NCBI GenBank assembly: GCA_964016885.1
Contig: OZ024743.1
Coordinates: 28,582,001 to 28,646,000, forward strand
Direction of reading: 5' to 3'
Source: Eledone cirrhosa
Taxonomy: Eukaryota
DNA: 64,000 nucleotides
Made by a program: the position numbers and the translations under genes. Below, piece by piece: positions 4,633 through 7,561 of this stretch (within the stretch, counting starts at the first letter, position 1; each line of letters begins with the position of its first letter). A model generated the notes under the pieces. That model was not told the DNA's origin. It saw only the letters and a program-made list of their open reading frames with translations, and made no database searches.

Positions 4633-6223
4633 ATCTTTCTCTAAAGCTCTCCTTATAACTATGTTTCCTTATAACTATGTATTCGTTAGCTACCTTTTTT
4701 ACAGTATCATTCTATCACTTTCCATACATAATAACACAACTGTACATTGTTTCCGTTTTTTTCCAGTTTTACAGCACACATCGCATTCATTGCAGTTACT
4801 AACTAGCATGTATGTGATGTTGAAAAAAAACAAAACAACACTGTTCTTATACCTATCTATCTATATACCAGTCTGTCTAATTCCATAACTATATCTTTAG
4901 ACTTTTAGTCTTTTTCATTTGTTTTATTTTATTTTATTTTCACTGGTTCCAGTCATGGATTGCGACCAGGTTAGGGCATCACTTTTACTGAGGTTTTAGT
5001 AGATCATACAGCTAGCTACTGTTTAATTTCTTCTCATACTACTTACATATCTTTTTATTTTTATTATTATTTTTTTTTTTTTCTAATTTCATGAATCATA
5101 AACTTAGACACATAAGCATACTCTCTCACTCACTCCCTCTCTCTCTCTCGCGCTCTCTCACTCTCTCTCTATCTCTCTCTCTCTCTCTCTCTCTCATATA
5201 CATACACATGCATGTATATAAATATATATATATATATATATATATATATATATATATATATATATATGATAGGCTCAGCCGTCGTGTGTCGATGTATGAG
5301 GGTTCAACAGTTTTCTCAGTCCAAATGTATATACATACATATATGTATATATATATATATATATATATACATATATATATATATATATATATAAATATAT
5401 GTATATATATATATATAAATATATATATGTATATATGTATGTATATATATATATATATATACATATATATATATATATATATATACATATATATATATAT
5501 ATATATATATATATATATATATATATATATATATATATATATATATATATATATATATATATATATATATATATATATATATATGTATATATGTATATAT
5601 ATATATATATATATATATATATATATATATATATATATATATATATGTATATATGTATATATATATATATATATATATATATATATGTATATATATATAA
5701 TCCATGTGCAACCATGCAGTATTCTTCTCCCCATATTTTTCATATATATATATATATATATATATATATATATATATATATATATATATATATATATATA
5801 TATATATATATATATATATGTATATATATGTATGTATATATATGTATATATATATATGTATATATATGTATATATATATATATATATATGTATATATATA
5901 TATATATATATATGTATATATATGTATATATATATATATATATATATATATATATATATATATATATATATATATATATATATATATATATATTAGAAAG
6001 TGAGGTTTTTTTTACAAAGTGAAAAATAACCGAGGTGTCCTACACGAGTGAAAGTATAAAGAAAAAGAGATGAAATCGAAAATGCAACTGGAGTCTTATT
6101 TTTTTTTTAAATATATATATTTATTTGGTTCCTTTTCCGGTTTCGCAGTTCTTCTGCTTTTCAAAAGGTGAGTTGAGATGGAGGGTCTGTGGTTTTTCTC
6201 CACAGACCCTCCATCTCAACTCA

Positions 6224-6261
6224 CCTTTTGAAAAGCAGAAGAACTGCGAAACCGGAAAAGG
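6224..6261 (+). ncRNA. Hammerhead variant with U3-A8 core (mirror 6131-6168 minus; second locus 10629-10661 minus)
   Basis: CCTT TTGAAAA GCAG-AAGAA-CTGC GAAA CCGG AA AAGG; the 10629 copy reads CTT TTGAAAA ... GAAA CCGG TA AAG with an intact GUA site. Confidence 0.6.
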
Positions 6262-7561
6262 AACCAAATAAATATATATATTTAAAAAAAAAATAAGACT
6301 CCAGTTGCATTTTCGATTTCATCTCTTTTTCTTTATATATATATATATATATATATATATATATATATATATATATATATATATGTGTATATATATATAT
6401 ATATATATATGTGTATATATATATATATATATATATATATATATATATATATATATATGTGTGTATATATATACATATATACATATATATATATATACAT
6501 ATATATATATGGTCGGTCAAGGTGTCAAGGTGACATATATATATATATATATATATATATATATATCACCTTGATCACCTTGACCGACCAGTCTGTCGGG
6601 CGCCATTCGGTGCCGCTGGTCACAGCATGTGCTGTTTTAGCCATACGATGACGCCATCCCACTGGCTGGGTGGGCAGGCCGATATATATATATATTAGCC
6701 GTCGAAACGGCTTGAGCTCAGCCGTCGGGGTCCTACTCGTTCCTATATATATATATATATATATATGTATATATGAATGTATGTATTATATACATATATA
6801 TATATAAATATATATAAGTATATATATATATATATAAATATATATATATATATATATATAATATATATATATATATATATATATATATATATATATATAT
6901 ATATATATATATATATACACGCACAACGGACATTTTTACAGCTTCTGTCGACCGGCCTTTACATTCAACTCCCAAAATAATGCATTCTTTCCTAAAACTC
7001 ACATCAATGACTGTTCAATGATCTCATGTAAAGTTTGAAACTTAAATTCAACAAAAAGAAATATTACCAAAGTTTGTCGAAAATCTTTTTTTCAAAAACT
7101 CATACTTTCACTTACCTTAAACATAACACTTCTACTGCTTCTACCACCAGCACTACCATTACTACAAATACTACTACTTTCTTTATCTGCTACCAGGACG
7201 ATAGATGGAGAGAGGGTCGTTGCTAGGGTATTTATAAAGAATGTATATATATATATATATATATAGAAAATAAGCATGAATTGCAAAAATATTCATTTAT
7301 TCCCTACTTTTTTTTTAAATTTCAGTATTAGACTGAGCCTTTACCGTGGTTTTGCTTTGAAGGTAAACATACATACATGTATATATATATATATATATAT
7401 ATATATATATATATATATATATATATATATATATATATATATATATATGTATGTATATATATATATATATATATATATACATATACATACATATATATGT
7501 GTGTGTGTGTGTACTTGTATATGAAAATGTGTGTATCAAGCGTGGAAAACAACTGTAAAAG

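What the first reader, a model, noticed from the sequence alone, without database searches (positions are those of the whole stretch)
6055..6337. Perfect fold-back (two ~138-bp arms) carrying a hammerhead with a compensatory U3-A8 core
Seen: arms 6055-6192 and 6200-6337 around a 7-nt loop. Each arm has stem I CCTT/AAGG, stem II GCAG/CTGC, GAAA and palindromic CCGG, but the core reads UUGAAAA instead of CUGANGA. Established: C3 and G8 form a tertiary Watson-Crick pair, so U3-A8 preserves it. The second locus (10498-10696) keeps UUGAAAA and has the intact GUA site that the 6 kb copy has lost. Standard CUGANGA searches would miss this family.
Basis: partly seen in the sequence, partly recalled or inferred. 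Interest (0 to 1): 0.75.

Follow-up and report, generated by a model that had tools for sequence, protein, structure and literature searches.

The report
Head-to-head Penelope retrotransposon stub
This hairpin is two short end pieces of a very abundant Penelope-type jumping gene joined head to head; its hammerhead-shaped RNA motif carries a U-A core swap already described in other animals, and this copy is predicted to be unable to cut itself, so the feature is real but ordinary.

Summary
In detail: two perfect 138-bp arms, a 7-nt loop and a UUGAAAA hammerhead core. It is not a stand-alone ribozyme element. The arms are end repeats (pLTRs) of a young Penelope-like retrotransposon with reverse transcriptase and C-terminal GIY-YIG nuclease. 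A core pattern finds 20,332 motifs genome-wide (control 47), about 20,057 of them U3-A8. Of the first 100, 48 lie in head-to-head pairs, and 32 of 46 fold-backs end at the same two sites as this one, 68 nt apart (the known Penelope 'tail'). Natural U3-A8 cores are in print (Perreault 2011), also in Penelope elements (Cervera and de la Peña 2014, about 1,300 in Schistosoma). This copy has lost U16.1 and its arms would pair with each other, so it is predicted inactive; the 10.5-kb copy keeps GUA but has a broken stem II. Cleavage is untested. Against function: a related family spread with mismatched 3-8 bases, U3 may be trapped by A17, and arm ends do not pile up at the cut site. Side results: a TATA box 30 nt before the clustered 5' ends, and arm geometry that points to copying from both ends of one break. 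The scan found this kind before on other DNA.

The parts
5987..6200 (-). Longer arm: pLTR stub from -36 to +177 relative to hammerhead U3 (5987-5992 is TATATA shared with the target tract)
   Evidence: 97% identical to the pLTR of the full-length element L053
5987..6054 (-). One-sided 68-nt tail between the family's two recurrent 3' ends (+110 to +177)
   Evidence: (loose ends at L053 3951 and 4019 followed by TA repeats)
6055..6192 (-). Left arm of the perfect 138-bp inverted repeat
6131..6168 (-). Minimal type I hammerhead motif, U3-A8 core (6164-6158), U16.1 changed to A (6136)
   Evidence: family state GUA
6193..6199 (.). 7-nt loop: head-to-head junction, made of element sequence of the longer arm
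6200..6337 (+). Shorter, inverted arm: pLTR stub from -28 to +109, ending at the family's first 3' end
6224..6261 (+). Second copy of the hammerhead motif with the same U16.1 change (6256)
5740..5992 (.). (TA)n tract, left target flank
6338..6510 (.). (TA)n tract, right target flank
10498..10696 (-). Solo pLTR-plus-tail stub of an older subfamily in a (TA)n tract; U3-A8 and GUA kept, loop II deleted by 3 nt, stem II mismatched

Best explanation
The fold-back is a head-to-head pair of short end-repeat (pLTR) pieces of an abundant Penelope-like retrotransposon lying in a (TA)n tract, likely made in one insertion, and its hammerhead-shaped U3-A8 motif is the family's standard motif, predicted inactive in this copy. 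Shown: parent elements have the order pLTR, ORF1, RT/GIY-YIG frame, 1-kb UTR, pLTR; copies end at two fixed sites (+109 and +177 from U3), both in TATA; short copies start in a narrow zone about 40 nt before the core. Inferred: transcription starts about 30 nt after a TATAAAA box, just before the hammerhead. The element's protein cuts a (TA)n tract, and the two target ends prime reverse transcription at the two sites of the 5' pLTR, helped by TA pairing. The two short cDNAs run to or near the RNA's 5' end and join head to head by microhomology. In intact RNA the motif would fold as a dimer through the ACCGGU palindrome and cut after GUA, probably weakly and with protein help; cutting is likely not needed for insertion.
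For: In 19 of 20 loci found with the end of the GIY-YIG frame, the unit follows 0.9-1.3 kb downstream in the same sense. In L052 and L053 it also lies directly before ORF1. The frame hits RVT_1 and GIY-YIG above Pfam cut-offs. 24 head-to-head pairs against 2 tail-to-tail and 1 tandem among the first 100 motifs. 32 of 46 fold-backs end exactly at +109 and +177, as this one does. 14 of 29 motif-bearing arms of an unselected sample start between -43 and -32; TATAAAA lies at L053 3770, 30 nt before 3800. Arms differ at 21 of 293 subfamily-variable site comparisons against 117 expected for random partners, so they share one template or source. In at least 5 of 46 fold-backs (L205, L212, L217, L226, L230) each arm holds sequence the other lacks, so neither is a copy of the other. 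The two-strand fold of the family motif gives the dimer helices. Inverted pLTR, tail and two reverse-transcription starts are described for Penelope elements (PMC3846280, PMC8557442, PMC11167929).
Against: No RNA data and no cleavage assay; the transcription start is inferred from DNA ends only. For this insertion the longer arm contains the whole shorter arm, so snap-back copying fits as well as two-ended priming. The 46 fold-backs come from searches chosen by me, not from a random draw. The tail is 68 nt against the 30-40 nt in print. In the anole element reverse transcription starts at sites not homologous to the target, unlike the TA pairing inferred here. No tree was built, so the clade rests on the linker motif.
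Confidence: 0.9

Rival explanations
1. The U3-A8 motif is a vestige that no longer cleaves in this family and is carried along as part of the pLTR. This concerns function only and is compatible with the Penelope origin.
For: Predicted folds pair U3 with A17 at the cut site, like the C3-G17 trap described for minimal hammerheads (PMC3884650; the analogy is my inference). A related family spread with G3-A8 (11 of 30) or A3-G8 (8 of 30). Short arms do not pile up at the cut site: 5 of 100 listed by eye, 1 of 30 by script. Minimal Penelope hammerheads cut poorly in vitro, and cutting was dispensable for insertion in vitro.
Against: Several families in this genome keep UUGANAA, GAAA, CCGG and GU[ACU] while stems change in a paired way: stem I CCUU/AAGG, GCAA/UUGU, AAUAU/AUAUU; first pair of stem II G-C, A-U, U-A or U-U (read by eye, few copies per family). 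U3-A8 cores were reported active in vitro (PMC3088659 citing earlier work).
Confidence: 0.35
2. The fold-back is a self-spreading hairpin or retrozyme-like mini-element with its own ends.
For: Short units far outnumber the coding part: summed contig depth 1.2-1.4 million over the unit against 1,900-7,400 over ORF1 (the tool warns this is no copy number).
Against: Junctions differ from locus to locus. All arm sequence is pLTR of a coding element. Only 1 tandem pair among the first 100 motifs. No listed copy shares this junction.
Confidence: 0.04
3. The perfect arms are an assembly or library fold-back artefact, or were made identical later by gene conversion.
For: The arms are 100% identical, including the rare U16.1 change; independent contigs did not bridge this junction (inconclusive).
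Against: The arm stops exactly at the family's biological +109 end and runs into a different (TA)n flank. Most other fold-backs have slightly diverged arms. Five other head-to-head pairs among 100 listed mutants also share a 16.1 change.
Confidence: 0.06

Closest known systems
Minimal type I hammerheads of metazoan Penelope-like elements, including the U3-A8 variant of Schistosoma mansoni Cercyon elements (Cervera and de la Peña 2014, PMC4209133; parts 1-2 of 4 read, supplements not read)
   Same: In the pLTR, 4-bp helix I, G10.1-C11.1, small palindromic helix III for dimer folding, U3-A8 core missed by the standard descriptor, inverted pairs 100-700 bp apart.
   Different: Different animal and family; helix II is 4 bp rather than 7-8 bp; no extra base between 9 and 10.1; about 20,000 motifs against about 1,300.
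Natural U3-A8 core variants (Perreault et al. 2011, PMC3088659; passages read)
   Same: Same 3-8 covariation; a U10.1-U11.1 mismatch and palindromic helix III, seen in sister families here, are also reported.
   Different: The passages read do not tie those examples to Penelope elements; tertiary contacts were not examined here.
Endonuclease-bearing Penelope-like elements of Neptune/Nematis type (Craig et al. 2021, PMC8557442; Arkhipova et al. 2013, PMC3846280; passages read)
   Same: RT, CX2-5CxxC linker, C-terminal GIY-YIG, partial tandems, inverted 5'-truncated copy, one-sided tail, (TA)n targets, optional frameshifted ORF1.
   Different: The tail is 68 nt, not 30-40; Neptune versus Nematis was not resolved.
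Poseidon element PAc of the green anole (Frangieh et al. 2024, PMC11167929; parts 1-2 of 4 read)
   Same: Two reverse-transcription starts that define the tail; hammerhead in the pLTR.
   Different: PAc has C3-G8 and its hammerhead overlaps the ORF start; its priming sites are not homologous to the target, whereas both ends here lie in TATA.
Animal non-LTR retrozymes (Li et al., bioRxiv 10.64898/2026.07.22.740005; part 1 of 5 read)
   Same: Non-coding repeats with a type I hammerhead, related to pLTRs.
   Different: Retrozymes are tandem arrays; these are solo or inverted stubs of a coding element.

Membership tests
Endonuclease-positive Penelope-like element (parent family) | RT followed by C-terminal GIY-YIG nuclease | tested here: met
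   RVT_1 E=5e-7 and GIY-YIG E=3e-6, both above cut-off, in L053 5153-7477; 700 homologues at E<=1e-50
Endonuclease-positive Penelope-like element (parent family) | pLTR repeated before and after the coding part (partial tandem) | tested here: met
   L052 and L053; 2 of 6 fetched regions show it, the other 4 are 5'-truncated or inverted
Endonuclease-positive Penelope-like element (parent family) | Inverted 5'-truncated copy and one-sided tail | tested here: met
   the tail is 68 nt, longer than in print
Neptune/Nematis type | CX2-5CxxC linker between RT and nuclease | tested here: met
   CGRSNCGTC before the GIY-YIG domain in the translations; definition from PMC8557442
Neptune/Nematis type | RT phylogeny with named reference elements | not tested
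   no named reference sequences were fetched; hits carry no clade names
Minimal type I hammerhead (family motif) | Core with paired 3-8 bases, GAAA, NUH triplet, helices I and II, palindromic helix III | tested here: met
   10,850 exact copies of the full motif; dimer fold
Minimal type I hammerhead (6-kb copy) | U16.1 of the NUH triplet | tested here: not met
   GAA in both arms
Minimal type I hammerhead (10.5-kb copy) | Intact helix II | tested here: not met
   3-nt deletion and mismatch; the predicted fold is not a hammerhead
Minimal type I hammerhead | 3-8 covariation among homologous copies | tested here: inconclusive
   U3-A8 about 20,057, C3-A8 154, U3-G8 102, C3-G8 19, many of the 19 unrelated sequences; the family is fixed, so there is no power
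Minimal type I hammerhead | Self-cleavage | not testable with these tools
   needs an assay
Rfam hammerhead families | Score at gathering threshold | tested here: not met
   no hit in the window; no hammerhead model at E<=10 on the intact pLTR
Non-LTR retrozyme | Tandem array of hammerhead units without a coding parent | tested here: not met
   1 same-strand pair within 6 kb among the first 100 motifs; coding parent found

The most novel reading that the evidence does not exclude
The family's U3-A8 plus GUA design is a built-in switch: U3 pairs with A17 and keeps the ribozyme shut until dimer formation or the element's protein frees it, and the cut site lies 3 nt inside a 5' splice site, so splicing and self-cleavage compete for the same 5' leader. 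Together with priming from both ends of one (TA)n break on TATA-matched sites, thousands of stubs would record the insertion mechanism of Neptune-type elements.
Probability: 0.12. Interest if true: 0.5.

Novelty: new member of a known kind. Interest (0 to 1): 0.18.

Why it matters
As a ribozyme variant it adds a host and a large family to a known case. Its use is as material. The family is young (40 of 40 listed copies identical over 281 nt of the nuclease end), has near-intact coding copies, and leaves thousands of stubs whose ends bear on open questions about Penelope insertion: where the RNA starts, how inverted arms form, and whether the hammerhead cuts at all. Searches built on CUGANGA would miss about 20,000 motifs in this genome.

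Tried and rejected
Rfam: no hit at gathering score; three sub-threshold matches at E 1.7-7, including MALAT1, taken as chance. Expression: no RNA holder listed, so nothing on transcription, splicing or cleavage; the four runs laid on L053 are contigs of unrecorded kind, and none of the 15 joints shown (of 26) matches the candidate intron. Junction check in independent contigs: no record bridged it with 31 letters on each side. A C3-G8 sister family: two C3-G8 hits (L120, L126) turned out to be odd copies of a family with mostly G3-A8 or A3-G8; 1 of 30 rows was C3-G8, 1 U3-G8, 3 G3-G8, and 6 read as U3-A8 (5 of them through a one-base gap); no coding link within 1.5 kb. Pile-up of arm ends at the cut site, a lead from earlier notes: not seen; the pattern only covers short-gap junctions. 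A spreading lineage without the GUA site: not seen, 105 changed against 10,850 intact. Dropped rows: L018 was misoriented and not parsed (31 of 32 rows parsed; 30 UUGAAAA, 1 UUAAAAA); L115 belongs to another family and was left out of the start count; the poly-A/T stretch +44 to +69 was left out of arm comparisons. The whole-window repeat search was swamped by (TA)n. A search for octopus + Penelope + hammerhead listed no paper on this family (the host group is my guess). No supplements were read, and they may list this or related families.

Full report
Observation. The arms 6055-6192 and 6200-6337 are exact reverse complements around a 7-nt loop, and both carry the described motif. The left arm continues 68 nt further than the right, and both ends run into (TA)n tracts. 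A transcript of the locus folds into one 138-bp duplex (z = -36.9), which buries the single sense hammerhead on either strand. Both arms have GAA instead of GUA. The 10.5-kb copy keeps GUA but has lost 3 nt of loop II and a stem II pair. Neither copy in the window is a good ribozyme candidate.

The family. A search of the genome with the 10.5-kb copy gave 2,223 first-look candidates. Of 31 rows parsed, 30 read UUGAAAA, and all 29 parsed genomic loci had GUA. The pattern YTGANRAN{10,16}GAAACCGGTH occurs 20,332 times (control 47). C3-G8 accounts for 19, C3-A8 for 154 and U3-G8 for 102, leaving about 20,057 U3-A8 by subtraction; these include several families (2,388 have a base other than A at position 7). 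The exact main motif occurs 10,850 times with U16.1 and 105 times without. U3-A8 is therefore the inherited state and the 6-kb change is a rare loss. Because the family is fixed, covariation cannot be shown within it.

The parent element. Upstream of L025 lies the end of a GIY-YIG frame. All 40 listed genomic matches to it were 100% identical, and in 19 of 20 loci the unit follows 0.9-1.3 kb downstream in the same sense. L052 and L053 show the order pLTR, 409-aa ORF1, RT/GIY-YIG frame (775 aa in L053, interrupted in L052), about 1 kb of UTR, pLTR. Pfam confirms RT and GIY-YIG, and a CX4CxxC linker points to the Neptune/Nematis type as defined in PMC8557442 (passages). No tree was built. The window arms are 97% identical to this pLTR.

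The fold-back is the family's usual form. Among the first 100 motifs, 24 adjacent pairs are head to head within 6 kb, 2 tail to tail and 1 tandem. Of 46 direct fold-backs in my loci, 32 end exactly at +109 and +177 from U3, as this one does; contigs of public runs show the same two ends followed by TA repeats. Both ends lie in TATA of the element. An inverted truncated copy and a one-sided tail are described hallmarks (PMC8557442; PMC3846280; passages), and in the anole element the tail is the stretch between two reverse-transcription starts (PMC11167929).

How it likely arose (inferred). In the unselected sample 14 of 29 arms start between -43 and -32, and a TATAAAA box lies 30 nt before -42. 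This fits a transcription start just before the hammerhead, with cDNAs primed in the 5' pLTR running off the RNA end. Paired arms differ at 21 of 293 subfamily-variable comparisons, against 117 expected at random, so they share a template or source. In at least 5 of 46 fold-backs each arm has sequence the other lacks, which snap-back copying alone cannot give; priming from both target ends explains it. For this insertion both routes fit, and PMC3846280 favours self-priming. The shared U16.1 change was either in the RNA, copied by snap-back, or converted later; five other pairs among 100 listed mutants share such a change.

Does the motif work? For: related families keep the core while stems change in a paired way (by eye), the two-strand fold forms the dimer helices, and U3-A8 was reported active (PMC3088659, citing earlier work). 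Against: predicted folds pair U3 with A17, by analogy with the C3-G17 trap (PMC3884650); a related family spread with G3-A8 or A3-G8; arm ends show no excess at the cut site; such minimal motifs cut poorly in vitro and cutting was not needed for insertion in vitro. I put weak, dimer- or protein-assisted activity at about 0.65.

Comparison and novelty. Perreault et al. 2011 reported natural U3-A8 covariation. Cervera and de la Peña 2014 reported it in Penelope elements, with about 1,300 hits in Schistosoma, and noted that their first descriptor missed it. My searches listed no paper on this family; supplements were not read. Earlier notes of this scan describe the same kind in other genomes and a second U3-A8 family in this one; they are unchecked, were read after my main reading was formed, and supplied the cut-site test, which failed here.

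Verdict. Real, explained, a new member of a known kind. Interest 0.18.

Noticed in passing
L053:5153-5240 (also L051, L052, L054): ORF1 and the RT frame overlap by 88 nt in the -1 frame, with a T TTT TTA heptamer and a predicted downstream hairpin, identical in the 4 copies that hold the site: candidate ribosomal frameshift. Frameshifted ORF1 is noted for Penelope elements in PMC8557442 Fig. 1 legend.
   Followed up: partly
L053:3869-3966 (window 6137-6040, - strand): The GU of the cleavage triplet starts a possible 5' splice site, with a pyrimidine tract and AG 98 nt on: candidate retained pLTR intron overlapping the hammerhead. Untested, no RNA run listed.
   Followed up: partly
window 27002-27394: A second fold-back of about 190-bp arms (98% identical) carrying a canonical CUGAAGA hammerhead with a GTAC palindrome; same architecture, unrelated sequence. 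Parent element not traced.
   Followed up: partly
window 28551-30968 (-), 31889-32320 (-), 35568-37274 (-): Frames that look by eye like RT plus C-terminal GIY-YIG with a Cys linker of the CxCX5C kind (Hydra type), amid long inverted repeats at 27588-33330. No Pfam hit for the two long frames.
   Followed up: no
L171-L200: A related family (881 first-look candidates) in which positions 3 and 8 read G-A in 11 and A-G in 8 of 30 rows: either a dead core that still spread or a swapped purine-purine pair.
   Followed up: partly
L115, L129-L157: A second large U3-A8 family with U-U or U-A at the first pair of stem II; several loci lie next to Penelope frames 40-60% identical to the main family's.
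   Followed up: partly
L115, L120-L170: A CATTTTC-like motif recurs 45-110 nt after the hammerhead in several diverged families, shortly before the first 3' end; possible protein-binding or priming signal (by eye).
   Followed up: no
window 58085-58951 (+): Frame with many repeats of FLRIG followed by basic residues, like an FLRIamide neuropeptide precursor (label recalled; no Pfam hit).
   Followed up: no
window 21406-25801 (-) and 61242-63485 (-): Two other decayed non-LTR retrotransposons; RVT_1 hits at 22953-24371 and 61245-63485.
   Followed up: no
window 6511-6590: Small inverted repeat around a (TA)n tract just right of the finding.
   Followed up: no
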